A stretch of DNA of 64,000 bases from Malacoraja senta (taxonomy: Eukaryota), in contig CM075988.1 in NCBI GenBank assembly GCA_038087875.1, positions 24,120,001 to 24,184,000 on the forward strand, in the 5' to 3' direction. Position 1 is the stretch's first letter; each line of letters begins with the position of its first letter. This document shows positions 276 to 45,059 of the stretch, piece by piece. Both the position numbers and the translations under genes were made by a program. Under the pieces are notes generated by a model. That model had not been told where the DNA came from. It was given only the letters and a program-made list of their open reading frames with translations, and did not search any database.

Positions 276-441
276 AGAACTGCAGATGCTGGAAAAATCA
301 AAGGTAGGCAAAAATGCTGGAGAAACTCAGCGGGTGAGGCAGCATCTATGGAGCGAAGGGTCTCGACCCGAAACGTCACCTATTCCTTCGCTCCATAGAT
401 GCTGCTTCACCCGCTTAGTTTCTCCAGCATTTTTGTCTGCC
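276..441. repeat. Fold-back (self-inverted) Penelope 3'-repeat
   Basis: Arms at about 305-359 and 386-441 are reverse complements; the loop is the partial motif GGGTCTCGACCCGAAACGTC. Confidence 0.8.
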
Positions 442-935
442 ATGAAATAGCAGTCGCCAGTGAAAGTGGTTCGACCCCTGCACAGCAAAGCTGTATTTCT
501 AGTGAGTGCGATGAGAGAGTTTTGGTCAATTAACCTGATTGAGTTTGGTTAGTAAGGTTACCGTTTATCGTGCAATGACTTTAGTGGATACTTTCTAATG
601 GAACTACAAAACTTTAGCTGCTCACAGGCTGTGCTGGATGGTTACAGCGTCCATAGCACTTGAGTATAATCAAATGGATTGGTGCCTCTGTAAAGCCTCC
701 ATTAACAGTGCCCAGTGTGTCTCCTTTAAACTATGTCTAATGTGATTTAAAAAAATAATTGAAAAAGCACAACTCCATTAAGCATGGCTCAGTAGTGTGG
801 GATCCAGCAGAGCTAACTGATGCATCAACACGAGCTGGAGTTGTAATGTCCCATTGCCTTCAGCAACATGTTAACACCACAGTGTGACACGCTGTGTAAC
901 GCAGCCACTTCTCTGCTAGACTTTTGCACTAGCTG

Positions 936-3622: not shown

Positions 3623-3996
3623 CAAAAGACAATATACAATAGACAATAGGTGCAGGAGTAGGCCATTCGGCCCTTCGAGCCAGCACCACCATTCAATGTG
3701 ATCATGGCTGATCATCCCCAATCAGTACCCCGTTCCTGCCTTCTCCCCATATCCCCTGACTCCGCTATTTTTAAGAGCCCTATCTAGCTCTCTCTTGAAA
3801 GCATCCAGAGAACCTGCCTCCACCGCCCTCTCAGGCAGAGAATTCCACAGACTCACAACTCTCTGTGAGAAAAAGTGTTTCCTCGTCTCCGCTCTAAATG
3901 GCTTACTCCTTATTCTTAAACTGTGGCCCCTGGTTCTGGACTCCCCCAACATCGGGAACATGTTTCCTGCCTCTAGCGTGTCCAAGCCCTTAACAA
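3623..3996 (-). mobile_element. Young CR1 3' fragment inserted in a Penelope repeat
   Basis: TRGHSLRI...FFSQRVVSLWNSLP; the host repeat resumes at TGGAGAGAAGG. Confidence 0.88.
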
Positions 3997-4014
3997 TGGA
4001 GAGAAGGAATGGGT

Positions 4015-4042
4015 GACGTTTCGGGTCGAGACCCTTCTTCAG
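4015..4042 (-). ncRNA. Minimal hammerhead motif, sense to the nectin1 pre-mRNA
   Basis: Reverse complement reads CTGAAGA-A-GGGT(CTCG)ACCC-GAAA-C-GTC. Confidence 0.6.
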
Positions 4043-5198
4043 ACTCTGTGGCTTTGTTAAGCCAATACCCCCCCAACTCTAACTGGAAGAGACAATATTG
4101 ATGGACTTCAACTTATATGGTAACACCAGCTGGCAAGCGTTGACCGTAAGGAATGCATTATCCACCTGGCTTTGGTGGACAGGAGACTTCAGTAACAGGA
4201 TCATACGCACATGAACTGTGCTGGCCGAGCGAATGAAATGGTTTCCTCGGTAAGAGACTGAATAATATGAAGTATTTTTTATCAGTCACCCCCCGCAGTT
4301 TAACGTGTGGTATAAAGTTTTCAGTAATATTCGACACCAGCTACCCTAATAGAAAATATTAGATACAGCTGCCATTTTATTACCAGCATCTTGGAGTATA
4401 AGCAGCTGAGGAATGCAGCACATGTGTATCCAGTCTCTTGTTAAAAGGCAGGGAAATTGTCCAAACTTCAGAGCCAAAAATGGAGTTGGGGCCAGGCAAC
4501 GGGGCTGGCTGGGGCTGGGGCTGCAGAATCAGCCTGCACTCTAGTTCACATCATGGATGGTACAGGTGGAATGGGAGCTGAGACCAGCCAGCCTGGTTGA
4601 CCGCAGTTCCGACTGGGCTTTGCCTTGACCTGATTGAACATCAGAGAAACATGGAAAATAGGAGCAGGAATCGGCCATTAAGCCAGTTCTAACCCTCAAT
4701 ATGATAAGTTCTTGTTATAGGAGCAGAATTAGGCCACTCGGCCCATCAAGTCTGCTCTGCCTTCAATCATGGCTGATGTATCTTTCCCTCTTAACCCCAG
4801 TCTCCTGCCTTCTCTCCATAACCCCTGATACCCGTATTAATCAAGAATCTGTCAATCTCCGCCTTAAAAATATCCATTGACTTGGCCTCCACAGCCGTCT
4901 GTGGCAATGAGTTCCACAGATTCACCACCCTCTGACTAAAAAAATTCCTCGTCATCTCCTTTCTAAAGTTACGTCCTTTTATTCTGAGGCTGTGCCCTCT
5001 TGTCCTGGAGTCTCCTGCTAGTGGAAACATCCTCTCCTCATTGGCTAGGCTTGAAATATTACATTCAGTTCCTTCAACAAAAATATTGGTACATTTTGTG
5101 AATGGCTGGGGTCCACACACGGACCTCTGTATATTTCATCCCCAGTCAAGTCCTGCCGAGCCAAAGAAGATCAGTTTATTCCTAATCTTAGTGCTCGA

Positions 5199-11596: not shown

Positions 11597-12102
11597 GTCA
11601 AGTCAAGTCAAGAGAGTTGTCATGTGTCCCAGATAGGACAATGAAATTCTTGCTTGCTACAGCACAACAGAACATTGTAGGCATAAATACAGAACAGATC
11701 AGTGTGTCTATATACCATAGACCATATATATATATACATAAATGAACAGATAAAGTGCAATAGAGGTAGACATAAATGCTGGAGAAACTCAGCGGAGGGT
11801 GAGGCAGCATCTATGGAGCGAAGGAAATAGGCAACGTTTCGACCCGAAACGTTGCCTATTTCCTTCGCTCCATAGAAGCTGCCTCACCCGCTGAGTTTCT
11901 CCAGCATTTTTGTGTCTACCTTCGATTTTCCAGCATCTGCAGTTCCTTCTTAAACAAAATAGATAAAGTGCAATAGGCTGTTTTAGTTCAGAGTTTGTTT
12001 GATGTCGTGTTTAATAGCCTGATGGCCGTGTGGAAGAATCTCTTCCTGAACCTGGATGTACCAGATTTCAGGCTCCTGTACCTTCTACCCGATGGCAATG
12101 GA
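11597..12102 (-). mobile_element. Rex1/Babar-type LINE 3' end (second copy, interrupted)
   Basis: PLPSGRRYRSLKSGTSRFR; 3' UTR similar to 10370-10538; (CTTGA)n tail. Confidence 0.75.
11764..11960. mobile_element. Fold-back Penelope 3'-repeat inserted in a Rex1-type LINE tail
   Basis: Near-perfect palindrome with arms of about 75 bp centred on CGTTTCG-ACC-CGAAACG. Flanked by the 16-bp direct repeat AGATAAAGTGCAATAG (11748-11763, 11961-11976). Confidence 0.85.
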
Positions 12103-13047: not shown

Positions 13048-14032
13048 CTAAAAGATTCAGGGATTAACGGCTTTGTTTTGCAAACGTGGATTTTGAGATT
13101 GTTGGTCTCTGATGTGTTTGTGAGGAATGCAAACAGGCTGTCAGTAACTGCCTGGCCCAACTCAGGCACCAGTTACTGGAGCAAGAGGGCACAGATGGGC
13201 ACAAGGCATCGCTGCACATGCAAATGTGTAGGAAGGAACTGTGGATGCTGCTTTAAACTGAAGATAGACACAAAAAGCTGGAATAACTCAGCGAGACAGG
13301 CAGCATCTGTGGAGAGAAGGAATGAGAGACCCTTCTTCAGTCTGAAACATCACCTATTCCTTTCCCCCCAGAGATGCTGCCAGAGTCTCTTGCCCAGAGC
13401 TGGGGAATCGAGAATCAGGGGACATGTCCTAGGTTTAATGAGAGTTGGGAAAGATTTAATGGAATGGAATGCTATTTATTGTCATTCAAACCTAGTTTTG
13501 AACGAAATATCATTTACTACAGTTTTTTACATTACAAAAAAACCCAAGACCCACACTTAACACAGTTTACATAAACATCCATCACAGTGAGTCTCCAACA
13601 CCTCCTCACTGTGATGGAGGGCAAAGTCTTATCTCTTCCCTTTGTTCTTCTCCCGCGGTCCAGCAGTCCAACTGCAGCGTCGAGGTGAACTGGGGCTCCG
13701 ATGTTAAAGCCCCCGGCGGGCGATGGTAAGTCCTGTGTCCATTTAGCCACGCCGGGTGATGTTAGGCCCCGGCTCCATGTCCTTTAAACCCCGCGGTTCA
13801 AGCAGTCCAACCCGCGGTCCAGCAGTCCAACTGCAGTGTCTAGGCGAACTGGGGCTCCGATGTTAGAGCCCCCGGCGGGCGACGGTAAGTCCCGTGGCCG
13901 CTAACCCGCGCCGGGCCATGTTAGGCCTCGCTCCGTGTCCTTTAAACCCCGCGCGTCCAGCGGGAGCAGTTGTCGTTGCGGGAGCTCTGAAAGCCGTCTC
14001 CCACCAGGGACCTGGAGCTCCCGATGTTCCTG

Positions 14033-14232
14033 NNNNNNNNNNNNNNNNNNNNNNNNNNNNNNNNNNNNNNNNNNNNNNNNNNNNNNNNNNNNNNNNNNNN
14101 NNNNNNNNNNNNNNNNNNNNNNNNNNNNNNNNNNNNNNNNNNNNNNNNNNNNNNNNNNNNNNNNNNNNNNNNNNNNNNNNNNNNNNNNNNNNNNNNNNNN
14201 NNNNNNNNNNNNNNNNNNNNNNNNNNNNNNNN
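14033..14232. other. Assembly gap (200 N)
   Basis: Run of 200 Ns; a round size typical of a scaffolding gap of unknown length. Confidence 1.
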
Positions 14233-17418: not shown

Positions 17419-17916
17419 AGACAATAGACAATAGGTGCAGGAACAGGCCATTCGGCCCTTCGAGCCAGCACCGCCATTCAATGTGATCATGGCTGATCAT
17501 CCCCAATCAGTACCCCGTTCCTGCCTTCTCCCCATATCCCCTGACTCCGCTATTTTTAAGAGCCCTATCAAGCTCTCTCTTGAAAGCATCCAGAGAACCT
17601 GCCTCCACCGCCCTCTGAGGCAGAGAATTCCACAGACTCACCACTCTCTGTGAGAAAAAGTGTTTCCTCGTCTCCGTTCTAAATGGCTTACTCCTTATTC
17701 TTAAACTGTGGCCCCTGGTTCTGGACTCCCCCAACATCAGGAACATGTTTCCTGCCTCTAGCGTGTCCAAGCCCTTAACAATCTTATATGTTTCAATGAG
17801 ATTCCCTCTCAACCTTCTAAACTCCAGAGTGTACAAGCCCAGCTGCTCCATTCTCTCAGCATATGACAGTCCCGCCATCCCGGGCATTAACCGTGTAAAC
17901 CTACGCTGCACTCCCT
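17419..17916 (-). mobile_element. Young CR1 3' fragment
   Basis: ORF 17507-17911 is a CR1 ORF2 C-terminus; (ATTGTCT)n tail. Confidence 0.9.
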
Positions 17917-18593
17917 CAAATGCTTTTTCCCTCAGCCGAGTAAAACAAGGTCAAGGCGGACGCGGAGATCGATCCAGCTCCATCCATCGAGTAAACCAAA
18001 TGAAAATAAGCATTTGTGTGCCCTGCAGCCGTCTCCATTGAGTTCAGGAAGAAAGGGAGAGCAGGGATAGAACCCTGACCTGCATAATGTGCGGCAGCAG
18101 AGATACTCGATGAACGCAAATGTGCCTCACACACACTGCACATGAAGCTACTCACTGGTCAATGATCCAGGCTCAATCCAGAATACAAATGTGGAGCGTT
18201 TGTTCATGTCCAGGGCTATTCCCAGCCCACTCACGTAAAAAAGCTCGAGAAAACACATCCCTTCCGAAGGAACCCTTCCTTCACCATTGCCCCGTTAATT
18301 GTGAATCCAAATGTGGTCAAGCACATTTGTTGCAGGAAGGAACTGCAGACGCTGGTTTGAAAGGGAGACACAAAATGCTGGAGTAACTCAGCGGGACAGG
18401 CAGCATCTCCGGAGAGAAGGAATGGGCGACGTTGCGGGTCGAGACCCTTTCTTTACATTTGTCGTCAGCCACCGGTAAGAGATGGTGGTCGTGTGATCTC
18501 CTCGTTCATGCAGAGTGCAACCATGAACCTGAACCTCTTGAGTGTTGGTAAAATGGGGGAAACAAATGGAAGAGGCAGAGGATGTGTTGTAGT

Positions 18594-21834: not shown

Positions 21835-22680
21835 TTAGGCACATGGATCTGCATGGAATGGAGGAACATGGATCACGAGCAGTCCGGGAGGTCAGTTTAA
21901 CTTGGCATCATGCTGGACACAGATATTGTGGGGCCTAATGGGTCATTTCCTGTGAAGATAGACACAAAGTGCTGGAGTAACTCAGCGGGACAGGCAGCAT
22001 CTCTGGAGAGAAGGAATGGGTGACGTTTAGGGTGGAGACCCTCGTGCTGTATAGCTCTATGTTCTAGAATGTATAAGAAAGAACTGCAGATGCTGGTTAA
22101 AATCGAAGGTAGACACAAAATGCTGGAGTAACTGAAGGGTCTCGACCCGAAACGCCGCCCATTCCTTCTCTCCAGAGATGCTGCCTGTCCCGCTGAGTTA
22201 CGCCAGCATTTTGCGTAAACCTAGATCTATGTTCTGTTTTTTTCTTCATCAAGGGACACCTGTTAATCAGTTGGGCGTCACAACAAAGAGACTCATTGCC
22301 ACCTTTATTGATTCAGGCGGTATAAAAAAAACCAAATATAATTCTCAAATTACCAGGGAGAGATGAATCATCAACTGACCAGTCTGGTTGTCTAACAAGA
22401 GAATCACTGTAAAAACACTCCTATTTACAAGCTGACGCAAGATAAGTTTATTAGTTTAGAGATACAGCACAGAAACGGGCCCTTCGGCCCACCGAGTCTG
22501 CACTGACCAGCGATCCCCGCACACTAATACTATCCTACACACACTGGGGACAATTTACAATTTTACCAAAGCCAATTAGCCTACCTTTGGAGTGTGGGAG
22601 GAAACCAGAGCAACCGGAGAAAACTCATTAAAGGCCAACTTCCCTCCTGGGATATATAAAGTTCTACTTTAGTCTTCAGT

Positions 22681-22708
22681 CTGAAGAAGGGTCTTCACCC
22701 GAAACGTC
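22681..22708 (+). ncRNA. Minimal hammerhead motif in a solo Penelope-derived repeat
   Basis: CTGAAGA-A-GGGT(CTTC)ACCC-GAAA-C-GTC. Confidence 0.6.
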
Positions 22709-23007
22709 ACCCATTCCTTCCCTCCAGAGATGCTGACTGACCCGCTGAGTTACTCCAGCTGTTTGTGTCTATCTTCGGTGTAAACCAGCATCTGCAGTTC
22801 CTTCCTACACAATGAATGAAGTTAATGGATTCATATTATACTGGGATTGTTCTGCGCTTGTAGTTGTCACACAGAACCAGAGCTACTGATAATAGTGAAC
22901 AGGACCTGGTGTCACTGGTGATTGTGATCAGCATTCAGAGTCACGAGTAACAGTAAGAATAATTCACACTCGCACCTGGAGGTGCAAGTGTGTGGAATTA
23001 TCTGCCT

Positions 23008-23438: not shown

Positions 23439-23613
23439 AGTCAGTCATAGTCATACATTTATGCCTGTCCCGCTGAGTTACTCCAGCATTTTGTGTTTAT
23501 CTTCGATTTAAACCAGCACCTGCAGTTCCTTCCCTGCACGTAAATACAGTTCTATGGGGTAGTGGTTCTACCGTAAGGTGGAGTTTGTCCAATGGACACC
23601 GGCCGGCACTTAC

Positions 23614-23964
23614 CGAAGACAGTGAGGTTGACCTGGCTCTCTCTGTTTCCGGTTGGGAAGGTCGCAAACTCACAGATGTACACTCCCTCGTCCATGAGCT
23701 CCAGCCTGGACATCTCAATGGTGGCGTCGCTGAGAGAGGGGTTCTTGAAGGAGACTCTGTGCTTGTACGGCGGCAGGACGGACTCGCCCATCGTGGGGTG
23801 GTAGATGGCGATGTTCTGCTTCGATCCGTTGGTCGCCTTCTGCCATGTCACCTGCGTGATTTTGATGGTGGGGTCGTTGTTGACGAAGGTGCATCGCAAC
23901 ACCACGCTGGTGCCGATAAACGCCGACAAGCTCTCGTCCACTGTCACGGTCTGCGCCTGGAAAA
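23614..23964 (-). CDS. nectin1: nectin-1 (PVRL1) internal exon encoding the N-terminal Ig V-set domain (probable exon 2)
   Basis: Translation FQAQTVTVDESLSAFIGTSVVLRCTF...KITQVTWQKATNGSKQNIAIY...DEGVYICEFATFPTGNRESQVNLTVF matches the nectin-1 V domain as I recall it (ITQVTWQK, EFATFPTGNRESQ). Donor G|GTAAGT at 23614/23613. Acceptor TTGTAG|TT at 23965/23964, with a CTAAC branch-point-like motif at 23984-23988. Length 351 bp, phase 1/1 as expected for an Ig exon. Confidence 0.93.
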
Positions 23965-24006
23965 CTACAACAACACACCCCTCGTTAGAAGTCAGTCGGA
24001 ATAATC

Positions 24007-24513
24007 GACAATAGACAATAGGTGCAGGAGTAGGCCATTCGGCCCTTCGACCCAGCACCGACATTCAATGTGATCATGGCTGATCATCCCCAATCAGTAC
24101 CCCGTTCCTGCCTTCTCCCCATATCCCCTGACTCTGCTATCTTTAAGAGCCCTATGTAGCTCTCTCTTGAAAGCATCCAGAGAACCGGCCTCCACCGCCC
24201 TCTCCCCATATCTCCTGACTCCGCTATTTTTCAGAGCCCTATCAAGCTCTCTCTTGAAAGCATCCAGTGAATTGGCCTCCACTGCCTCCGAGGCAGAGAA
24301 TTCCACAGATTCACAACCCTCTGTGTGAAAAAGTTTTTCCTCATCTCCGTTCTATGGCTTACCCCTTATTCTTAAACTGTGACCCCTGGTTCTGGACTCC
24401 CCCAAGATCAGGGACATGTTTCCTGCCTCTAGCCTGTCCAAACCCTTAATAATCTTATATGTTACAATAAGATCTCCTCTCATCCTCCTAAATTCCAGAG
24501 TATACAAGCCCAG
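24007..24513 (-). mobile_element. CR1 3' fragment with an internal tandem duplication; its tail ends about 40 bp before the nectin1 acceptor
   Basis: The AVEAGSLDAFKRELDRALK unit is present twice (ORF 24094-24306). Confidence 0.85.
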
Positions 24514-29288: not shown

Positions 29289-30416
29289 TCTTTGTGTCTA
29301 TCTTCTCCAGCACTTTGTGTCTATCGTCGGTTTAAACCAGCATTTGCAGTTCCTACCTACACATCATCAAAACCTTTGTTCCAATGTCCAATGGATACAG
29401 CGTTGGCTCATGTTCACACAGATTGTAAAGTTTTGTTCCTTTTAATGTTTGACCGAAATAAACATATTCATTCATTCATTCAAAATTAGGCCATTCGGCC
29501 CATCAAGTCTACTCTGCCATTCAATCATGGCTGATCTATCTTTCCCTCACAACCCCATTCCCCTGCCTTCTCCACATAACCCTTGACACCCCGTACTAGA
29601 ATAGTGGACCCGCCGTCTGTGGCAATGAATTCCACAGATTCACCACCCTCCGACTAAAGAAATTCCTTCTCTTCTTCCTAAATATACTCAGTATATTCAA
29701 CAATGGGAATTCACAGGGAATCATGAAAATCTGAGATTAGGTTGGGAAAGTGAATTTGAGGTAAACAAACTGAATGACACTGCGTTCGAATCTGTTCATC
29801 TATTGGCCATAATCACACGTTAGCAATTTTAATCAAATCTATAAGGTGACTTAATGTTTGGGAAAGTGAATTAGGTGCGCGCCGGGGCTCTAACACCACG
29901 ACCCTGCATTAACCGGCGTGGCTTTAATGGCCACGGGATGATCACCATCGCCCGCCGGGGGCTTTGACTTTGACTCTGACATCGGGGGGGGGGGGGGGGG
30001 GGCAGTGGAGAGATACGTTTTTTTTGCCTTCCATCACAGCGCTGTGATGGATGGATGTGTAAATTGTGTTGTGTCTCCGGTCTTCTTCGTTTTGTATTGT
30101 ATGGCTGCAGAAACGACATTTTGTTTGGACCTCAAGGGGTCCAAATGACAAATTTGTCCAAAAGACAAATAAACAAATTGTTTCTTTATCCCACAGTCTT
30201 AAACTGATACTTGTTTCCCATCAACTTTTGTAGACCAATTTTCTGTGGTTTCATCATTCTAAACATAGTTTTGAACAAAACCTTCACTGAGTAAGCTAAA
30301 GAAACTTAGACCCCTGCCCACGTTATGTACAAGTCACCAAGTCCGACTGTAGGTAGACACAAAATGCTGGAGTAACTCAGCGGGACAGGCAGCATCTCTG
30401 GAGAGAAGGATTGGGT

Positions 30417-30445
30417 GACGTTTCGGGTCGAGACCCCTTCTTCAG
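30417..30445 (-). ncRNA. Minimal hammerhead motif (one extra G), sense to the nectin1 pre-mRNA
   Basis: Reverse complement CTGAAGAAGGGGTCTCGACCCGAAACGTC. Confidence 0.5.
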
Positions 30446-31347
30446 ACTGAGGCTCAGGGGAAAGGGAAACAAGAGATATAGGACAAATGAGGGGAGGTTC
30501 AACGGGATCTGGGGGGTTCTTGTTCATCAGTCAATGAAAGTAAGCATGCAAGTAAAGCAGGCAGTGAAGAAAGCAAATGGCACGACAGCCTTAATAAGGA
30601 CCTCAACCCGAAATGTCACCCATTCCTTCCCGCTTTCTCCCCATATCCCTTGATTCCGTTAGCCCCAAGAACTCTATCTAACTCTCTCTTGAATACATCC
30701 AGTGAATTGGCCTCCACTGCCTTCTGTGGCAGAGAATTCCACAGATTCACAACTCTGTGTAAAAAAGATTTTCCTCATCTCAGTCCTAAATGGCCAACCC
30801 CTTATTCTTAAACTGTGAACCCAGGTTCTGGACTCCCCTACAGTTAGCTCAAGTAACAATGTCAGCACATAGTGATAATAATAATACATTTTATTTATAT
30901 AGTGCTTTTCAAGGACTCAAAGTTAGAGATTACGGTTGGCATGCTGTTAGGAGGCCTGGAATATAGCTCGACAGGTCAGTACACTAGAATGAATCAGACC
31001 TTGGCAGCCTAGGGTATAAATTACGATTGGAATTAAAACTAGCCAGTAGGAGTAATGAATGGTGACATGAGATGATTGGATTTTCATTATCACGCTGTGT
31101 GATTCATTAATACCCTCGGCAAAGAGGAACCTGCTCCATCTCCCTGGTTTGTGTGATGGGCAACACCAAATGCACCACCGCCTTCCACCTTCAATTGTCC
31201 ATTATGCTGATCCAGAGAACCATCTCCTGCAAGAGTAACCGGAGATACGTGTAGTCCTCTCCAGCAATATCCATATGAATAGTATCACCACTTGCTCAAT
31301 GCAGTACCCACTTCCAACCATCATAATATCCTACTTTGGATGCAGTT

Positions 31348-31670: not shown

Positions 31671-34042
31671 TGACACTATTATTAACTTTCGCTCCTTTTA
31701 ATGGCCAGCATTTTCCAACCTCCATTATAACTCCGGCAGGGATTAGCGCTCAGCACGCATCTAATCGTTGCACACGTGCTTGGAGTGCTGCTGCTTGCAG
31801 CCAACCTTGTTGGTAAAAGCAATGCTGCCCCAGAGCTCCATCCATCCTCCACCAACCCAGACCCGCTCGGCCAGACGGCTGTGGAGGCCAAGTCAATGGA
31901 TATTTTTACGGCAGAGATCGACAGAGTCTTGAATAGTACGGGTGTCAGGACTTACGGGGAGAAGGCAGGAGAAAGTCTGAAGGGTCTCGACCCGAAACCT
32001 CACCCATTCCTTCTCTCCAGAGATGCAGCCTGTCCCGCTGAGTTACTCCAGCATTTTGAGTCTATCTTAGGCAGGAGAAAGGTTGAGAGATCAGCCATGA
32101 TTGAACGGCAGAGAAGACTGGATGGGCCGAATGGCCTGATTCTTCTCCTATCACTTACGAACCTATGAACCCCCAACAATGCTCAACGTGCCAGCTCCAC
32201 CATAGCTTGCCCGCAAGTAGTGGCCACACGGGAGATCAGTGGACGTGCTTTGCCAGAGGCAGAGCCCAGAGGAATGGCAGATACAGCGGTCACTGCAACC
32301 GGCAGCAAGGCGCTAAAAGCATTTGCAGAAGCTGACGCCGGCTAATTGGAAAAGGTTTCCGACGCCAAGCACTGGGTGGATAAGATAAGCAGATGCAGCA
32401 TTGGTAAACTGGCACCAGACAAAGTTCCTCTGGGGATCACGGGTTCAGATCCACTCATCGTCTGTCACCCGGTCGGTGCCACTGCAGAAAGGATTTGCCA
32501 GCAAGTTGAAGCTTCCTGAAGAGTGAAGTGATCCCAATGAGAATGAAGAGAAGGTGGGAAACGGCCAAAGGGCGGCACATTGGAAACCGGGGCTCCTGGA
32601 GAAAACCCACATGGTCACACTGTTCCTTAGTCACAGGGTGGTGAATCTGTGGAATTCTTTGCCACAGAAGGTTGTGGGGGCCAAGTCAGTGGATATTTTT
32701 AAAGCGGAGATAGATTCATGACGAGTACAGGCGTCAGGGGTTATGGGAGAAGGCAGGAGAATGGGGTTGAGAGGGAGAGATAGATCAGTCACGATTGAAT
32801 GGTGGAGTAGACTTGTCGGGCCAAATAGGCTAATTCTACTCCTATCACATATGACGGGGACAATGTACAAACTCTGCACACTGACAGCACCCCTAGTCAG
32901 GATCGAACCTGGGTTTTGGGCGCTGTAAGGCAGCAACTCTACCGTTGCGCCACCATTACAAGCAAAGGTTGGACAAGTTAAGGTTGTACCTTTTGGAGTA
33001 GAGAAGAGCGGTAGACGACAAGACAATAGGTGCAGGAGTAGGCCATTCGGCCCTTCGAGGCAGCACCGCCATTCAATGTGATCATGGCTGATCATCCCCA
33101 ATCAGTACCCCGTTCCTGCCTTCTCCCCATATCCCCTGACTCCGCTATCTTTAAGAGCCCTATCTAGCTCACTCTTGAAAGCATCCAGAGAACCTGCCTC
33201 CACCGCCCTCTGAGGCGGAGAATTCCACGACTTGACTGAAATATACACGGGTCGCGAGCGGTCTTGACGGAGGGCATGCAGAGAGGATATTTCCTCTTGC
33301 TGGAGAATTTACAAGCAGGAGTCACCGTTTAAAAATCGGGGGTCATGCACTGAAGACAGGCGAGGGGGAAACTTCCCCTCGGAAGGTCATCATTGGATCT
33401 CACCACCTCAAAGGACAGTGAGGGCAGTCTTAAATATTCCAAAATCAGAACTTGAGGAATACTTGATTGGAAAGGGGGTGGAAGATTCCGATGGGGGTGA
33501 GCACGGAATGTGCGGATGAGGTACAAGATCCCCCATGAATTTATTAAATGGGGAGAAGCCCGATGGAGCAAGTGACATGCTCTTGCTATTTTACACAGGT
33601 GTGTAACGTCACAATGGACGCAACAGTGAATAGAAATCTACTTCTCTCCCACCACCAGGATTTCATTACCAACTATGCAACTGAGGAACGTTTGGAAAAC
33701 TATTACTAAAATGGACACCCGCCTCTCATTCCTGACGAGTTTGAGTTGAGCTTATTGTCACGTGTACCGAGGTACAGTGAAAAGCCTTTTGCTGCGTGCT
33801 AACCAGTCAGCGGAAAGACAATACATGATTACAATCGAGCCGTTCACAGCGTACAGATACGTGCTAAAGGGAATAACGTGAATAGCACTCCGTGCAAGTT
33901 AAATCCAGTAAAGTCCGAGCAAAGACAGAGATGGTCCCCAGTGTCTCCATGAGGTAGATTGGAGTTTAGGACCGAAGATAGACACAAAAAGCTGGAGCAA
34001 CTCAGCGGGCCAGGCAGTATCTCTGGAGAGAAAGGAATGGGT

Positions 34043-34071
34043 GACGTTTCGGGTCGACAACCCTTCTTCAG
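34043..34071 (-). ncRNA. Minimal hammerhead motif, sense to the nectin1 pre-mRNA
   Basis: Reverse complement CTGAAGA-A-GGGT(TGTCG)ACCC-GAAA-C-GTC; the variation is confined to loop II. Confidence 0.55.
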
Positions 34072-34217
34072 ACTCTGCTCTCTAGCTGTTGGTAGGAGGG
34101 TTCAGTTGCCCGATTACAGCTGAAATGTGACAATGCAAGATGGAGTAGGATCTGGTAACCCAACGAGATCACCCTTTCCGTTTAGAAGCCGCTCTTACAC
34201 AGGGCATTGTTCCAAAA

Positions 34218-35550: not shown

Positions 35551-35770
35551 GTGTAGGAAGGAACTGCAGATGCTGTTTAAAAACCGAAGAAAGATGCAAA
35601 AGCAGGAGTAACTCAGCGGGACAGCAGCATCTCTGGAGAGAAGGAATGGGTGACGTTTCAGGTCGAGACCCCTTCTTCAGACGTCTCGACACGAAACGCA
35701 CACGCCATTCCTTCTCTCCAGAAATGCGGCCTATCCCGCTGAGTTACTCCAGCTGTCTGTGTCTATCTTC
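35551..35770. repeat. Fold-back Penelope 3'-repeat
   Basis: Minus-strand copy with a near-intact motif (35652-35680) followed by an inverted partial copy. Confidence 0.75.
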
Positions 35771-36629
35771 TTTGATAGAGTGGTTTACCTTTCCAATGAA
35801 ATGACGGCATGATACCATTATTATTGCACGGCAATGTATTTTCACGGTGGGTGTAAACCACAAATTTGGAATATTACCAGCTGAGATCAAAGTGAAATGT
35901 GAAACCTGGCTAAGCTGTCAGACTGCGGAATTACAACTCATCCCAGCAGTTCATATTGAAACAGCTCGCACACAAGGATTTCCAGAGGGAGTATGTGTTT
36001 TTACAATCCAACTTATTTACTTTGCAAAAGAACCCTTTCATTTGGAAAACAACATTTTAAATAATCAGCAACAGAGGAGTTTTGGCAAGTTTCACCGATC
36101 AGAGAGATTATGGTTGCAATAGAACCAGATCACACTAAACACACCCTTTTAACAGATATGATGTATCACAGGATAATGGCTGTGGTTTTCAGTGGAACTG
36201 TAAAGGACATCCAGAATTAATCTGTGTAGGAGGGAACTGCAGATGTTGGTTACACCGAAAATAGACACAAAATGCTGGAGTTTAGTTTAGACATACAGCA
36301 CGGAAAAGCTGGGCCCTCGCCATGCCGACCAGCGATCCCCGCACATTAACACCATCCTACACCCACCAGGGACAATTTTTACATTTACCAAGCCAATTAA
36401 CCTACACAAACCTGCACGTCTTTGGAGTAACTCCGCGGAATCAGGCAGCGTCTCTGACAGACGAAATCTACAAGGCCTCGTCTAGGCGGAAACGGCTTTC
36501 TATTCTGCCGCAAGTATTCAGGACAAAGTGGATGTCAGAGCAAATTGACCCCATGAACGGTGAGCTGGGAGGGGCGGGAGACCTTCGTGGAAATGCAGAA
36601 CAGCAGCGCAAAGAAAACTAAACGTAAAC

Positions 36630-37769: not shown

Positions 37770-38142
37770 ATAGACAATAGACAATAGGTGCAGGAGTCGG
37801 CCATTTGGCCCTTCCAGCCAGCACCGCCATTCAATGTGATCATGGCTGATCATCTCCAATCAGTACCCCGTTCCTGCCTTCTCCCCATATCCCCTGACTC
37901 CGCTATTTTTAAAGAGCCCTATCCGGCTCTCTTGAGCTCTCCTATCCAGAGAACCTGCCTCCACCGCCCTCTGAGGCAGAGAATTCCACAGACTCACCAC
38001 TCTCTGTGAGAAAAAGTGTTTCCTCGTCTCCGTTCTAAATGGCTTACTCCTTATTCTTAAACTGTGTGTGGCCCCTGGTTCTGGACTCCCCCAACATCGG
38101 AAACATGTTTCCTGCCTCTAGTGTGTCCAAGCCCTTAACAAT
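37770..38142 (-). mobile_element. Young CR1 3' fragment, host of the Penelope insertion (resumes at 39424-39448)
   Basis: The consensus CCCTTAACAATCTTATATGTTTCAA is split by the insertion. Confidence 0.88.
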
Positions 38143-38157: not shown

Positions 38158-39215
38158 GTGATTGTATTGGTGCCACATCCTGCACCCACACACAACTGAC
38201 TGACTTCATCCGCTTCACCACCAACTTCCATCCGGCACTCAAATACACCTGGACCATTTCCGACACTTCCCTACCATTCCTTGACCTCACTATCTCCATC
38301 GCAGGTGATAGACTTCTTACCGACATCCACTACAAACCTACCGACTCCCATGGCTATCTGGACTACACTTCTTCCCACCCTGCTTCCTGTAAGGACTCCA
38401 TCCCCCACTCCCAATTCCTCCGTCTACGCCGCATCTGCTCCCAGGATGAGGCGTTCCACACCAGGGCATCTGAAATGTCCTCATTCTTCAGGGAACGGGG
38501 GTTCCCCTCCTCCACCATAGATGAGGCTCGCACCAGGGTCTCTGCCATACCCCGCAACACTGCTCTCTCTCCCCATCCCCCCACTCACAACAAGGGCAGA
38601 GTCCCCCTAGTCCTCACCTTTCACCCCACCAGCCGTCACATACAACAAGTGATCCTCCGTCAGTTTCGCCACCTCCAACGTGACCCCACCACTCGCCACA
38701 TCTTCCCATCTCCCCCCATGTCTGCCTTCCGCAAAGACCACTCCCTCCGTAACTCCCTTGTCAATTCTTCCCTTCCCTCCCATACCACCCCCTCCCCGGG
38801 TACTTTCCCTTGCAACCGCAAGAGATGCAACACTTGTCCCTTCACCTCCCCCCTCTACTCCATTCAAGGACCTAAGCAGTCGTTCCAGGTGCGACAGAGG
38901 TTCACCTGCATCTCCTCCAACCTCATCTATTACATTCGCTGCTCTAGATGCCAGCTGATCTACATCGGTGAGACCAAGCGGAGGCTTGGCGATCGTTTCG
39001 CCGAACACCTCCGGTCGGTCCGCAATAACCAACCTGAACTCCCGGTGGCTCAGCACTTCAACTCCCCCTCCCATTCCGTATCTGACCTCTCTGTCCTGGG
39101 TCTCCTCCATGGCCACAGCGAGCAACACCGTAAATTGGAGGAAATGCACCTCATATTCCGCTTGGGCAGTCTACATCCTGGGGGCTTGAACATTGAATTC
39201 TCCCAATTCTGCTAG
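38158..39215 (+). CDS. Penelope-like element ORF fragment: RT C-terminus/thumb, Cys-rich linker, GIY-YIG endonuclease
   Basis: Uninterrupted frame of about 350 aa with DCIGA (remnant of YIDD-CIG), LPFLDL, YKPTDSHGYLDYTSSHP...SIPHSQFLRLRRICS, PCNRKRCNTC and NLIYYIRCSRCQLIYIGETKRRLGDRFAEH. The predicted start codon lies in junction sequence and is not real. Confidence 0.9.
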
Positions 39216-39332
39216 CCCTTGCTGTCCCCTCCCCTTCATCAGCCATCTGGTTGTCTCCTCCCATCCCCCAGCCCTCGGGCTCCTCCTCCGCCTTTTTCCT
39301 TTTTTCCTTTCTTCTCCCCACCCCCTATCAGT

Positions 39333-39360
39333 CTGAAGAAGGGTTTCGGCCCGAAACGTT
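39333..39360 (+). ncRNA. Minimal type-I hammerhead ribozyme motif in the Penelope 3' repeat
   Basis: CTGAAGA-A-GGGT(TTCG)GCCC-GAAA-C-GTT. Conserved CUGANGA and GAAA cores, 4-bp helix II with UUCG loop, loopless helix III (palindromic ACGT), NUH triplet GUU. Helix I is only about 2 bp. Confidence 0.65.
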
Positions 39361-41416
39361 ACCTATTTCCTTCGCTCCATAGATGCTGCTGCACCCGCTG
39401 AGTTTCTCCTGCATTTTTGTGTACCCTTAACAATCTTATATGTTTCAAACATATATGTATATATGACTTGTATGTAAACATATATGACTTGTATGTATAG
39501 AGACGAATGAACATCGTGGAATAAGTTAGAAAATACCCAGCAATTACCCCAATACATTAAGAAAGTTGGGAGACCATCACACCCATCGGCATTATTTAAT
39601 CGAGCTTCCTTCCCACATACAAACTTCACCTTCCGAAACAGAATTTGCAAATACTGCACCCATTAACTGAGCAGGTGAGCACCAGGAACATTAACTAGCA
39701 GCGTTGCGGTTAGAAATGATGACAAACATTGTTGAGTTTGAGAAGTAATTCACCATCAATAATTCACCATTCACCTCCTTCCACTCCTAACCAACACAGA
39801 ATTTGTTTTTTTAAATCTGTCAAGCTCTTGGCTCAGAGCCAGAAGGCAGAAGATTAAAAAAAAAGCAGCTCCATTAGTGCCAATAGGAATAACAAAGGAT
39901 GGAATTCAAAAACATCGCGCCCGACATGCAGGTGGGAAGATGGGACAGCAAGGCCGGGCCGGGCACATTCACCTGGGCAGTGGCGGCGCAGTGGTAGAAC
40001 TACAGCCGTACAGCGTCAGGGACTCGGCTTCCATGACCACTACGGGTGCTGTCTGTGCTGAGTTTATATGTTCTCCCCGTGACCGGTGTGGGCTGCCTCC
40101 GGGATCTCCGGTTTCCTCCCACACTCCAAAGGGGGGTGTGTGGTGTCTGTCTCTCTCTCTCTGTGTGTCTGTCTCTCTCTGTGTGTGTGTGTGTGTCTCT
40201 CTGTGTGTGTCTCTCTCTGTGTGTCTCTCTCTCTCTCTCTCTCTGTGTCCCTCTGTCCCTCTCTGTGTGTGTCTCTGTCCCTCTCTCTCTGTCCCTCTCT
40301 CTGTGTGTGTCTGTCCCTCTGTCTGTGTGTGTCTGTGTGTGTTTGTGTGTCTGTAGTCGGTGCGATTCCGCGCCATATCTCTAAACTAAACTAGATTTAC
40401 AATAGGGAACTGCGCTTTATTACTGTAAACTAAATAAAACTGTAAACTAAAGAGTGCATGATTGAAGCTGCCAACTCAGTGGCACACAACAGGGTTAATC
40501 CCATCTACAGACCACCCCTTCACTCTGCCCTGGAGAGGAGAGAGGCCTGGCTGTTATTTTGCTGACCTATTTCCCGCTGGTCCATCAGAATTGTGACAGC
40601 AGGGATAAAGCTGACACTTGGAGATTGCTTTTAGATTATTACTTGTCTGGTACGAAAAATGGTCACTTGGCATTCCGCCAGCTGCCAAATTCCACTTTAT
40701 TTCATCCCGACACCAAGCGTTTACTCACTCTAAGCTGCGCCGGGGCAGGGTCACCTTCACAAGGGCCCTTCCCGACTCCTGCAGTTTTCGACAACCAGCA
40801 GAGCAAGCATTCACAGCATGAAAAGTCGAAACGTCGCAGTTTGTCACGACAGACTCGGACTGAAACGTCGGCGATAACCGGCGCATTCTCAACAGTTTAC
40901 AGAACTTTCTAACTAAAGAACTTGACATTAATTTTAATCAAGCCATACCACGGGGACTGGTCAATGGATGTGGACGTTTCTCAGATGAGGCAGCGCAATA
41001 TTCAGTAATGGGAAGTGACTGGAAATCATTGCAATGGGTTTACACCATCATCGTGAGGGGGCAGTGTGAGGCTCGCAAATCAGAGTTATCTAATATGCTG
41101 TTCAAATTAAACTTCAACACTGATTAGAATGAGCACCTGCTGGTTGCCACAGCCACATGGAAAGGTTACTTATTCCCATCTCAAACGGCGCCTAAATCGC
41201 GCTGCCCTACTTTCCCCCCCACATTCAGAGCTCAGTCATGCAGCGGCCATTTGGCTCATTATCCCCTTGCCAACAGGAGTTCCTCATCAAAACCTCATAG
41301 CCTCCATTTTCGTGGACACTTGTGATGGCCCTGGCTTTAAAAGCTGAATCCAAATAGCCTCCTCAGCCATTTACCCCTTATCGAAACCCCACAGTATTTT
41401 ATTGAAACATTGGCTT

Positions 41417-41918
41417 AATTCTTGCTATTGAGGGAGTGCAGCGTAGGTTTACAAGGTTAATTCCCAGGATGGCGGGACTGTCATATGCTGAGAGAATGGA
41501 GCAGCTGGGCTTGTACACTCTGGAGTTTAGAAGGATGAGAGGGTATCTCATTGAAACATATAAGATTGTTAAGGGCTTGGACACGCTAGAGGCAGGAAAC
41601 ATGTTCCCGATGTTGGGCGAGTCCAGAACCAGGGGCCACAGTTTAAGAATAAGGAGTAAGCCATTTAGAACGGAGACGAGGAAACACTTTTCCTCACAGA
41701 GTGGCGAGTCTGTGCAATTCTCTGCCTCAGAGGGCGGTGGAGGCAGGTTCTCTGGATGCTTTAAAGAGAGAGCTAGATAGGGCTCTTAAAAATAGCGGAG
41801 TCAGGGGATATGGGGAGAAGGCAGGAACGGGGTACTGATTGGGGATGATCAGCCATGATCACATTGAATGGCGGTGCTGGCTCGAAGGGCCGAATGGCCT
41901 ACTCCTGCACCTATTGTC
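41417..41918 (+). mobile_element. Young CR1 3' fragment
   Basis: ORF 41436-41780 is a CR1 ORF2 C-terminus. Confidence 0.9.
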
Positions 41919-43200
41919 ATTGGCCCATTCATAAGACACAAAGTGCTGGAGTAACTCAGTGGGTCAGGCAGCATCTCTGGAGAACATGGAGAGCTGATGT
42001 TTGAGGTCGGGACCCTTCTTCAAATTGAAGGGTCCTGACCCAAAACGTATCTATCCATGTTCTCCAGAGATGCTGACCTACCCGGATGAGTTACTCCAGC
42101 ACTTTGTCTTTTCTTTTGCAAACTGGCATCTGCAGTTCCTCCTTTCTCCATCAGTCTCACCATGATGGTGTCTATAGGAAGAAGGTTCTCGACCCGAAAC
42201 GTCGCCCATTCCTTCTCTCCAGAGGTGCTGCCTGTCCCACTGAGTTACTCCAGTTTTTTGTGCCTAACTTCAGTTTAGACCAGCACCTGCAGTTCCTTCC
42301 TGCACATGATGCTTTGAGGATGTCTGCTTCCAAGAGCTCCAAATGCAACTTTACTGAGCTTCTATTTATAAACTATGATAATTCCCGGCACATTTATTCC
42401 CACCTGCGCTGACAAGTTACCTTGCAAAGTTTCGGTCGAGACCAAGGTTGAAATTCCTGTTTTTCCAGATATATTTTTAAAAACTTGTTTTTTTTTGTGT
42501 GGGTTTCAAAAATTGCAACCGATTGCAAAATTAATGCCGACACAATCGTCAGCTCCACCCCACGCTGATGTTGACCCACGAGACAAGGACGCAGCCACCA
42601 ATGTTAGACTTGTGCGGGACCTTGCCGGGAATAGGCAACCCGCTGCCATTTTCTCCACCACCGCCCATCGGGAACTCAGAATGGCCCTGCCGACATGCCC
42701 GGTGCGAACTTGCCCAGGTCCCACCCGTCACTGACGTCCCGGCTGGAGCCCGGCGATGGGGCAAAAGTGTCTCGAGTCGTTCTCAGCAACTCCCGCCTGT
42801 GGACCCCGCACAAGATTAGTGTGTGGGAAGGAACTGCAGATGCTGGTTCAAACCGAAGATAGGCACAAAACGCTGGAGTAACTCAGCGGGACAGGCAGCA
42901 GCAACTCTGGAGAGATGGAATGGGTGACGTTTCAGGTCGAGACCCTTCCACAGTGAGAGTTAGAGAAGAGGGTCTAGAGATATGGAAGGGTAAGGTGTGA
43001 AAACAACGACGATAAGGAAATGTAGAATGGTTCATTGTTAGCGGAGGGTGTGACAAGGAGGCGTACAACCAGTAAATTAATCAGTGAAACTATGATTCTC
43101 GATTAGTACGGGTGTCAGAGGTTATGGGGAGAAGGCAGGAGAATGGGGCTAGGAGGGAGAGATAGATCAGCCACGATTGAATGGCGGAGCAGACTTGATG

Positions 43201-43541: not shown

Positions 43542-44679
43542 TTGATGGGTCGAATGGCCTAATTCTACTCCTTGTGACCTAGTCGGAGGACTGGGATGGG
43601 GAGGGACGGATAAAGCCAACTGCACGGATATCTCCGTTTACTGTTCCGACGCTGTGCTCCTCTCCAGTCTCCCAACTCTACACACACACAGGAACACATC
43701 CCAGGGGCATTCTGGCCAAAGCTGGCCTCACAGCGGTCGTGATGTCCCCATCATTGCAGTGCTGCCGTGACATCGATCTAACCAGCTGCAAACCCCACAC
43801 AGTCAGTCAGCCAGTCGCTCGCACAAAGGTTGCCTGCCAGCCATTTTACTGAGGATTTACTTTAAACATGACAGGCAGCAGTGTAGGACCGGTCCCGTGG
43901 GCTCCCGCTGTAGAGATTGCACATGGAAGCAGCTCTAGACAGGCAGGCCACGCTGCCAGACTGTAAGCAGGCTCATCACTGCCCTCCCCGGTGTTGTCGT
44001 CCCTTGATGTTGCCTCATGTTAACATTATTCAGATCTAAACCTTCTCTCGCTCCAATACAAAACCTGACAGCAGAACAATCTATATTTATGCTGTTTAGT
44101 GTGCTTAAAATGGACACAGTTTGCACATTCCTCCCTTTCAATCACTGCACTGACATGCCCGAGGACGATGCCTTCTCTGGTGTTGGAAATCCAATAATAA
44201 TGGTCCCAGCGCCCAGAGGTTCGCGCGAGATAATACTTGTGGCTCAAATACTGTTGTATGCTGCACTCATTATGCGCCAACCCATCGAAGTCAGGGTTGC
44301 CTAGGAAGGCCATCGTCATCCTCTCAGCTTTGATTACTTGCACTGGCGCTTGTCAATATACCTTCAACATAACCTTAAGGGAAAGACCGAGATCATAAAA
44401 TCGCAGAGTAGTTAATAAATCTAAAGGTCATATCATTGTCAAACACAATATCATTGATGAAATATCACCTAAACTTACTCGGAAGAACACGGATAGGTGG
44501 CGTTTTGTGTCGTGGCCCTTCTTCAGTCTGACAGTCCGAAGGAGGGTCCCCACCCAAAAACATCACCTGTCCATGTTCTCCAGAGATGCTGCCCGACCCG
44601 CTGAGAAATTCCAACACTTTGTGTATTTTTGTGAAGCAGCATCTGCAGTTCCTTGTCCCTACATCTGGACAGACTCCGT

Positions 44680-44707
44680 CTGAAGAAGGGTTTCGGCCCG
44701 AAACGTT
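44680..44707 (+). ncRNA. Minimal hammerhead motif, same subtype as the ORF-linked copy
   Basis: CTGAAGA-A-GGGT(TTCG)GCCC-GAAA-C-GTT followed by GCCTATTTCCTTCGCTCCATAGATGCTG. Confidence 0.6.
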
Positions 44708-45059
44708 GCCTATTTCCTTCGCTCCATAGATGCTGCTGCACCCGCTGAGTTTCTCCAGCATTTTTGTGTACCTTCCATCTTTGGTAACCTCAGCAGTTGG
44801 CTGGGCAAGCAACTCTCTCAAGAAGCATCATGTCCCAAAAAGACAGGGGTGAGAAGATGCAGGGAAACAAAGATGGGTGGGGGCACAAAGACAGATAAAA
44901 GATGTTCCTTTAACTTGAGATCTGTCAGACATTAGACATTTGCAAAAGACATATTGGAACAATTTCCAAGCCAATATTTCTGACACAACCTGTTGTCACC
45001 ATAATGGGCCTGTCCCACTTAGGACATTTTTTAGGCCGAAAAACCAGTGACCGGACTAA

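What the first reader, a model, noticed from the sequence alone, without database searches (positions are those of the whole stretch)
39216..39423. The commonest short repeat here is a Penelope 3' repeat carrying a minimal hammerhead ribozyme motif
Seen: directly after the GIY-YIG ORF is AGT-CTGAAGA-A-GGGT(TTCG)GCCC-GAAA-C-GTT-ACC. The same unit, with or without the motif, recurs at roughly 40 loci in 64 kb. Across copies helix II pairing is kept while its loop changes: GGGT-CTCG-ACCC, GGGT-TTCG-GCCC (U-A to U-G), GGGT-CTTC-ACCC, GGGT-TGTCG-ACCC, AGGT-CCTG-ACCT (G-C to A-U). The triplet stays NUH (GUC/GUU). Established: Penelope-like elements carry minimal type-I hammerheads with a very short palindromic helix III, thought to act as dimers. 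Inference: what looks like an anonymous SINE is a highly amplified ribozyme-bearing non-autonomous family, with its mobilising enzyme visible in the same window. Weakness: helix I is only about 2 bp (GU/AC), there is an extra A after CUGAAGA, and many copies are CpG-decayed.
Basis: partly seen in the sequence, partly recalled or inferred. Interest (0 to 1): 0.85.

Follow-up and report, generated by a model that had tools for sequence, protein, structure and literature searches.

The report
Penelope element ends with minimal hammerheads
The repeat is the very abundant tail end of several Penelope-like jumping-gene families and carries a real, already described tiny self-cutting RNA motif; the short copies are likely aborted reverse transcripts of uncut RNA rather than a separate mini-element.

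Summary
Observation confirmed. The motif lies at 39330-39362 in a 5'-truncated Penelope-like (Neptune-type) insertion with an 11-bp target-site duplication. The window holds 57 hits at 47 loci, only 6 with an intact motif; the genome holds 41,266 exact intact motifs (control 0). (1) The G-C to A-U covariation is chance-level: 1 of 170 copies. (2) The window's ORF is only the C-terminal 351 of 1,238 residues, and belongs to a minority subfamily. (3) A separate non-autonomous family is not needed: both commonest-type UTRs I searched lead to their own older GIY-YIG ORFs. Head-to-head pairs carry one long-tail and one short-tail arm in 31 of 35 cases, likely from priming on both DNA strands. Cleavage is untested, and the fold is predicted disfavoured in isolation. 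Known kind; useful as a young, intact test system.

The parts
38132..38142 (.). left target-site duplication (11 bp), followed by about 16 nt of filler
   Evidence: identical to 39424-39434
38159..39215 (+). C-terminal third of the Neptune-type ORF (RT thumb region, C-X4-C-X2-C linker, GIY-YIG endonuclease), 5'-truncated, no RT core
   Evidence: 98% identical to positions 2827 onward of a 3,996-bp full unit with a 1,238-aa ORF; Pfam GIY-YIG E 3.7e-4, below the curated cut-off
39216..39329 (+). pyrimidine-rich 3' UTR specific to family A
   Evidence: 94-98% identical in the 12 long copies fetched; unlike the UTRs of other families
39330..39362 (+). minimal type-I hammerhead motif: 2-bp helix I, CUGAAGA, extra A, 4-bp helix II, GAAA, 4-nt palindrome in place of helix III; predicted cut after 39360
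   Evidence: sequence; core letters the same in 6 family majorities apart from one CpG-decay position; cleavage not tested
39363..39425 (+). conserved 3' segment ending at the proximal (short-tail) 3' end, unit position about 96; lacks the optional ~35-nt tail
   Evidence: two 3'-end peaks, at model positions 91-99 and 120-122 and at unit positions 96-100 and 131-136
39424..39434 (.). right target-site duplication
44678..44797 (+). short family-A-type copy starting at G2, intact motif
22678..22802 (+). short B-type copy with long tail, intact motif
33970..34074 (-). short B-type copy, intact motif
30346..30448 (-). B-type copy with its own UTR upstream, intact motif
3994..4045 (-). B-type copy, intact motif, 3' part interrupted
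11758..11946 (.). head-to-head pair (short-tail arm on -, long-tail arm on +) joined in helix II; forms a ~100-nt hairpin
277..452 (.). head-to-head pair, long plus short arm
35560..35773 (.). head-to-head pair, long plus short arm
41932..42140 (.). head-to-head pair, short plus long arm
44478..44653 (.). head-to-head pair

Best explanation
The repeat is the 3' end (minimal hammerhead plus optional 35-nt tail) of several Neptune-type Penelope-like families, and the short copies are likely aborted target-primed reverse transcripts made from RNA that had not self-cleaved. Shown: full-length 3,996-bp units with a 1,238-aa RT plus GIY-YIG ORF exist, some in tandem, with the motif 135 nt upstream of the next ATG; short copies carry TSDs, span the cleavage site, have two alternative 3' ends and pile up at the motif's 5' edge. 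Inferred: the protein cuts both DNA strands and starts reverse transcription inside the RNA at one of two sites; most cDNAs are released after 100-135 nt; when both strands prime, one at each site, the two cDNAs join head to head. Inferred: the ribozyme is slow or protein-assisted, acts as a dimer across tandem units, and would process long tandem transcripts, possibly into circles. The dispersed copies are mostly decaying debris.
For: Family A ORF copies about 98% identical, 115,200 candidates. Tandem junction and full units. B-type UTRs lead to their own ORFs in 19 of 20 and 15 of 15 loci. TSD of 7 bp or more beside the 5' boundary in 17 of 30 loci (two pairs are repeats of one insertion), shuffled mean 0.67. 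Only 3 of 146 unpaired short copies begin at the cut site (positions 31-33), while 98 begin at positions 1-14. Of 16,371 exact family-A motifs, 3,066 have a non-element letter directly before G2. 49 head-to-head versus 5 tail-to-tail and 7 head-to-tail pairs among 279 hits. One long plus one short arm in 31 of 35 classifiable pairs, p 1.6e-6. Arms are of the same family in 33 of 49 (null 9.7) and share derived variants at twice the null rate. The short arm reaches further 5' in 18 of 27 informative pairs (hand count), which simple fold-back copying cannot give. Hammerhead fold predicted 2-10 kcal/mol above the free fold. In vitro the Anolis element cuts and extends both strands, starts RT at two internal sites, uses uncleaved RNA and has a protein-assisted hammerhead (PMC11167929).
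Against: No cleavage or RNA-end data. The segment 3' of the motif is as conserved as the core, so conservation alone does not prove catalysis. The 5' boundary is very sharp at G2/A1 inside an initiator-like TCAGT (label recalled), with excess G before it (47 of 100 against 30-35% expected, p 4e-4 to 9e-3; 38 of 100 against 28%, p 0.02), which fits a capped short RNA. The 76 of 111 is an upper bound, since rare UTR families would count as stops (L057 and L190 share one such upstream sequence). Second-pass copies are a selected, processive set. 16 of 49 pairs were assigned to different families, partly classifier noise. Gene conversion between arms could mimic shared variants.
Confidence: 0.72

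Rival explanations
1. A SINE-like non-autonomous family: short copies are transcribed from an internal promoter starting at A1/G2 (or by read-through) and are mobilised in trans by the Neptune protein.
For: Sharp 5' boundary at G2/A1 and G excess before it. The stop is absent on the second pass. Most unpaired copies of every family lack a recognisable UTR. PLE proteins can act in trans on pLTR-framed sequences (PMC3846280).
Against: 5' ends spread over positions 1-24 rather than one base. Each of the six sequence families has UTR-bearing members (1-12 each), and three are shown ORF-linked. Full-length copies do not start at A1/G2 (0 of 17). The G excess is modest and partly explained by A>G change.
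Confidence: 0.2
2. The motif is a catalytically dead hammerhead relic, kept only as the docking structure for the reverse transcriptase.
For: 2-bp helix I with predicted pairing probability of 0.05 or less; core-sequestering folds predicted in all families. No double-sided covariation. No 5'-end peak at the cut site. Eight of nine predicted Xenopus dimers did not cleave (bioRxiv 2026.07.22.740005).
Against: Across six family majorities with unalignable UTRs, the 7 variable positions of 34 are loop II (3), a wobble-tolerant helix II base, a CpG-decay site, H17 (U or C only) and base 1.1 (A or G, both pair with U): the pattern expected of a maintained catalytic core. The equally weak Anolis motif cleaves with protein. 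This rival concerns catalysis only and is compatible with the truncation model.
Confidence: 0.3
3. Short copies arise by splicing: the pyrimidine tract plus CAG before the motif acts as a splice acceptor and host exons are captured.
For: All UTR types end in a pyrimidine tract and CAG. The D. virilis intron ends at helix I (PMC4209133).
Against: TSDs abut the boundary within 0-9 nt in 17 of 30 loci, leaving no room for an exon. G, not the exon-end pattern, is enriched before G2.
Confidence: 0.04
4. Short copies are solo repeats left by recombination or deletion of full elements, and the inverted pairs arise by cDNA fold-back.
For: Junctions often fall in the palindromic helix II region; self-priming was proposed for rotifer elements (PMC3846280).
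Against: TSDs flank short copies and whole pairs; the long plus short asymmetry and the further 5' reach of short arms do not fit copying of one arm from the other.
Confidence: 0.06

Closest known systems
Minimal hammerheads (min-HHR) in pLTRs of metazoan Penelope-like elements (Cervera and de la Pena 2014, PMC4209133)
   Same: Type I, no real helix III, palindromic 15.2-16.2, extra base between 9 and 10.1, G10.1-C11.1, mostly single motifs from truncated elements, some opposite-strand pairs.
   Different: Helix II is 4 bp (7-8 in Schistosoma) and helix I is 2 bp (4-5 typical; 2 in D. virilis). 41,266 exact intact motifs here against about 9,000 in Xenopus tropicalis and 4,000 in coelacanth (different descriptors). 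No shark, skate or ray entry found in the parts I could search.
Neptune clade of endonuclease-positive PLEs (described in Craig et al., bioRxiv 2021.04.23.441226)
   Same: One ORF, RT then C-terminal GIY-YIG, CX2-5CxxC linker, DKG motif, partial tandems, inverted 5' copy, one-sided 30-40 bp tail.
   Different: Long ORF (1,238 aa) with a proline-rich, internally repeated N-terminal insert; clade assignment rests on motifs, no tree was built.
PAc, Poseidon element of Anolis carolinensis (Frangieh et al. 2024, PMC11167929)
   Same: Two internal RT start sites bounding the tail, uncleaved RNA as template, both strands extended, weak hammerhead.
   Different: There the ORF starts inside helix II and the tail lies in the ORF; here the ATG is 135 nt past the cut site and the tail is non-coding. 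Different clade. Here only genomic footprints, no biochemistry.
Non-LTR retrozymes (Li, Clavereau and Pollet, bioRxiv 2026.07.22.740005)
   Same: pLTR-derived, hammerhead-bearing, non-coding; one 408-bp x 13.5 array elsewhere in this genome fits the definition.
   Different: The window repeat is dispersed monomers and inverted pairs, not tandem arrays.

Membership tests
Endonuclease-positive Penelope-like element | single ORF with RT and C-terminal GIY-YIG | tested here: met
   1,238-aa ORF; RVT_1 E 6.5e-6 and GIY-YIG E 1.5e-3, both below curated cut-offs
Endonuclease-positive Penelope-like element | partial tandems forming pseudo-LTRs | tested here: met
   L032, C562, C2340, C19, C10, C232
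Endonuclease-positive Penelope-like element | inverted 5'-truncated copy and one-sided 30-40 bp tail | tested here: met
   49 head-to-head pairs; 31 of 35 long plus short
Endonuclease-positive Penelope-like element | target-site duplications | tested here: met
   17 of 30, null 0.67; 11 bp at the finding
Neptune clade | CX2-5CxxC linker between RT and endonuclease | tested here: met
   C-X4-C-X2-C in the translation
Neptune clade | RT phylogeny with named Neptune elements | not tested
   no named reference sequences at hand; Nematis shares the linker
Minimal PLE hammerhead | core CUGANGA, GAAA, NUH | tested here: met
   41,266 exact matches, control 0
Minimal PLE hammerhead | extra base after A9, G10.1-C11.1, palindromic 15.2-16.2 | tested here: met
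Minimal PLE hammerhead | helix I of 4-5 bp (2 bp in the D. virilis variant) | tested here: inconclusive
   2 bp in all six families; no extension seen; pairing probability 0.05 or less
Minimal PLE hammerhead | compensatory changes in helices | tested here: not met
   1 of 170 double changes; only one-sided U-A/U-G changes; neutral copies are not expected to covary
Minimal PLE hammerhead | self-cleavage as dimer or with protein | not testable with these tools
   needs in vitro assay
Rfam hammerhead families | match to a curated model | tested here: not met
   no hammerhead hit at E<=5 in the window
Non-LTR retrozyme | two or more tandem non-coding units, each with a complete hammerhead | tested here: not met
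   window repeat: 7 head-to-tail pairs among 279 hits; met only by the C2688 array outside the window
SINE-like non-autonomous family | own lineage distinct from the autonomous partner's end | tested here: inconclusive
   all six families have UTR-bearing members, three shown ORF-linked; no genome-wide tree
SINE-like non-autonomous family | internal promoter and fixed 5' end | tested here: inconclusive
   sharp but not single 5' boundary; modest G excess; promoter not testable

The most novel reading that the evidence does not exclude
The 130-nt hammerhead-plus-tail module is a self-propagating Penelope SINE: a short capped RNA starting at the edge of helix I, kept uncut by alternative folding, on which a dimeric Neptune protein primes both DNA strands at two fixed sites of one RNA. 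This would have produced several hundred thousand copies and on the order of 100,000 inverted-repeat hairpins in one vertebrate genome.
Probability: 0.18. Interest if true: 0.65.

Novelty: new member of a known kind. Interest (0 to 1): 0.33.

Why it matters
The class is known, so the motif itself is not news. The value is in scale and testability. About 0.37-0.49 hits per kb in random regions imply very roughly 0.7-0.95 million copies; they cover 5.5% of the 464 kb sampled (which includes the repeat-rich window region). A young family with intact ORFs and tandem full units offers a Neptune-type vertebrate system for biochemistry; of the papers I read, only a Poseidon element has been reconstituted. 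The genomic counts (one long plus one short arm per inverted pair, first-pass-only stop, no insertions starting at the cut site) give in vivo support for two-site, two-strand priming on uncleaved RNA and sharpen the open question of what the hammerhead is for.

Tried and rejected
Rfam scan: no hammerhead family; microRNA-like hits are the inverted pairs. Covariation among copies: chance level. Splice-capture origin of short copies: rejected by abutting TSDs. A 5'-end peak at the cut site as a fossil of cleavage: absent; among full-length 5' ends one lies at +35, and L190 (+28) was left out because it shares an upstream sequence with L057 and looks like an internal deletion. Longer helix I through upstream pairing: none seen. 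End-to-end pairing of the core with the long-tail end: better than shuffles only in A and A2 (2% and 3% of 500), not in four other families, so not claimed as conserved. Within-array versus between-array identity of 4-kb units did not separate rolling-circle from other origins (within 0-7 differences, between mean 5). Sequencing runs: no RNA holder listed; the four runs laid were contigs whose RNA status is a guess, with no GT..AG joint among the 15 of 66 joints shown; no conclusion on expression. No solved-structure match for the ORF at E<=0.01. Lunse et al. (RNA Biol 14:1499) is not held; only its title was seen. Seven of the 40 listed full-length 5' ends were not examined.

Full report
Observation. 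A profile iterated from two natural copies finds 57 hits in the window (47 loci, as 10 are head-to-head pairs) and 279 hits in 464 kb (window, 4 adjacent and 36 arbitrarily chosen 10-kb regions); the reversed control gives 0. Only 6 window copies and 14 of the 279 keep a strictly intact motif. Genome-wide an exact 32-place intact pattern occurs 41,266 times, control 0. The 36 random regions give 0.49 hits per kb (0.37 on the largest contigs), very roughly 0.7-0.95 million hits in 1.94 Gb. In a window self-comparison the repeat has the highest coverage (47 against 36).

Covariation. The claimed G-C to A-U change is not supported. At G10.1-C11.1, 123 of 170 copies keep G-C, 34 show C>T alone (CpG decay) and 1 changes both sides, close to the 0.8 expected by chance. 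Recurrent changes are one-sided U-A to U-G and mark families. Among majority sequences of six families, 7 of the first 34 positions vary: three in loop II, one wobble-tolerant helix II base, one CpG-decay site, H17 (U or C) and base 1.1 (A or G). The UTRs upstream differ between families and cannot be aligned over their length. This fits a maintained hammerhead core, but the 3' segment is equally conserved, so catalysis is not proven. No Rfam hammerhead model matches.

The element. The window ORF is the last 351 codons of a young family: 114 scored copies at about 98% identity from 115,200 candidates. Full units are 3,996 bp with a 1,238-aa ORF whose ATG lies at +167 from the motif's first base, and occur in tandems of up to about 3.9 units that end at unit position 96-99. 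The protein has weak RVT_1 and GIY-YIG matches, a DKG motif and a C-X4-C-X2-C linker, the Neptune/Nematis signature in Craig et al.. The closest named relatives by identity are shark and ray proteins (Mobula 73%, Chiloscyllium 69%, Rhincodon 68%, Hypanus 66%; best 120 of 1,109 hits listed), so the host is likely a cartilaginous fish. The window copy spans 38159-39425 with an 11-bp TSD. It belongs to the A/A2 group, 6 of 57 window hits; B types make up 39. Searching with two B-type ORF-end/UTR stretches returned loci with GIY-YIG ORF remnants upstream in 19 of 20 and 15 of 15 fetched cases, at about 82% and 92% identity to the queries. The repeat is thus the shared 3' end of several families of different ages (median divergence 3% to 16%).

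How short copies form. They have two 3' ends about 35 nt apart, the optional tail of PLEs. TSDs of 7 bp or more abut the 5' boundary in 17 of 30 young loci (two pairs repeat one insertion; null 0.67), so they are fresh insertions with no captured exon. They span the cleavage site: of 146 unpaired copies without UTR, 98 begin at positions 1-14 and 3 at 31-33. The templates were therefore uncut. The boundary is sharp: among 16,371 exact family-A motifs, 3,066 have a non-element letter before G2 and 1,980 before A1. Up to 76 of 111 unpaired copies that reach the motif's 5' edge stop there, but only 1 of 17 independent full-length copies stops when it reaches the upstream motif (p 9e-7; the array and L190 left out; 33 of 40 listed hits examined, from 1,146 candidates). 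The stop therefore belongs to the initiation phase or to a separate short template. A G excess before the boundary (47 of the first 100 listed, and 38 of 100; hand counts; tests) keeps the capped-short-RNA rival alive.

Inverted pairs. There are 49 head-to-head, 5 tail-to-tail and 7 head-to-tail pairs. Of 35 classifiable head-to-head pairs (14 left out for a truncated arm), 31 have one long-tail and one short-tail arm (expected 17.4; p 1.6e-6). TSDs flank whole pairs (L150, L161, L172). Arms are of the same family in 33 of 49 (null mean 9.7) and share derived non-CpG variants at 0.0091 per site against 0.0046. The short arm reaches further 5' in 18 of 27 informative pairs (hand count), which fold-back copying cannot produce. 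I infer that both strands of the cut prime, one at each internal site, probably on the same RNA. The one-sided tail and inverted copy are described, and the Anolis protein extends both strands and starts at two sites in vitro; I found no paper giving this count or reading in searches.

The ribozyme. All defining letters of the minimal motif are present, and the extra A and a 2-bp helix I are both described. The hammerhead fold is predicted 1.6-10.5 kcal/mol above the free fold and helix I pairs with probability 0.05 or less, so solo copies are likely inert. Tandem full units and one 408-bp array place two motifs on one transcript, the geometry proposed for dimers. I put activity in a dimer or protein-bound state at about 0.6; this is inference.

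What is known. Papers seen: PMC4209133, parts 1-2 of 4 of the text, plus a term search of supplement file 2 (file 1, which may list further species, could not be searched); PMC11167929, parts 1-2 of 4; bioRxiv 2026.07.22.740005, parts 1-3 of 5, which includes one cartilaginous fish with retrozymes of mean 363 bp (supplements closed and may name related families); passages of PMC2377424, bioRxiv 2021.04.23.441226, PMC3846280, PMC6765202 and PMC6155905; Lunse et al. title only. Searches found no paper describing these hammerheads in sharks or rays; Repbase and Dfam could not be checked. Earlier AI notes from other genomes reach similar verdicts; they are not independent evidence.

Verdict. A real feature, a new member of a known kind. 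Interest 0.33, for scale, the young intact family and the quantitative insertion footprints.

Noticed in passing
L142:1705-7314 (G000:C2688, about 130,700-136,320): A retrozyme-like array: 13.5 tandem 408-bp units (3' UTR, hammerhead, tail, first 128 nt of the ORF), preceded by an inverted long-tail arm, ending at the short-tail end, flanked by a 10-11 bp TSD. The junction occurs only at this locus (13 matches, control 0). It fits one rolling-circle insertion or later local amplification.
   Followed up: partly
L140-L141 (C2340), L138-L139 (C562): Tandem arrays of full 4-kb units (about 3.9 and 2.1 units), several with intact 1,238-aa ORFs.
   Followed up: partly
window 23552-24064 (-): An exon encoding an immunoglobulin V-set domain (Pfam E 2.6e-17), nectin-like by recall; the repeats around it show no strand bias (18 + and 19 - unpaired copies).
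   Followed up: no
window 17419-17950, 24007-24470, 41399-41922 and about 60 other segments: Many 3' fragments of a second abundant retroelement (CR1-like LINE by recall; peak coverage 36); the finding's element is inserted into one of them.
   Followed up: no
L057:5123 and L190: Two family-A copies share an AT-rich upstream sequence unlike the usual UTR; L190 lacks the hammerhead core between positions 5 and 27 yet continues into the ORF.
   Followed up: no
L032:4557-4700, run X3: Contigs of organism C join the tail end back to the motif start through short pyrimidine-rich linkers, suggesting tandem or circular 135-165 nt units; contigs of the four runs laid show loose ends at the same two 3' positions.
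   Followed up: no
window 39216-39332 and other UTR types: Every UTR type ends in a pyrimidine tract and CAG at the edge of helix I, like the D. virilis intron end; may be a splice acceptor in transcripts.
   Followed up: partly
unit positions 51-58, 80-87 and 107-114: One 8-nt strand can pair with either of two repeats of the same motif, each 10-20 nt before one of the two 3' ends; alternative stems could set the two RT start sites. Not tested for covariation.
   Followed up: partly
L022:5576-5803: The ORF's proline-rich N-terminal region holds a 78-bp in-frame repeat whose copy number varies between young copies.
   Followed up: no
window about 13,990-14,230: A run of 200 N (assembly gap or withheld) directly before one copy.
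   Followed up: no
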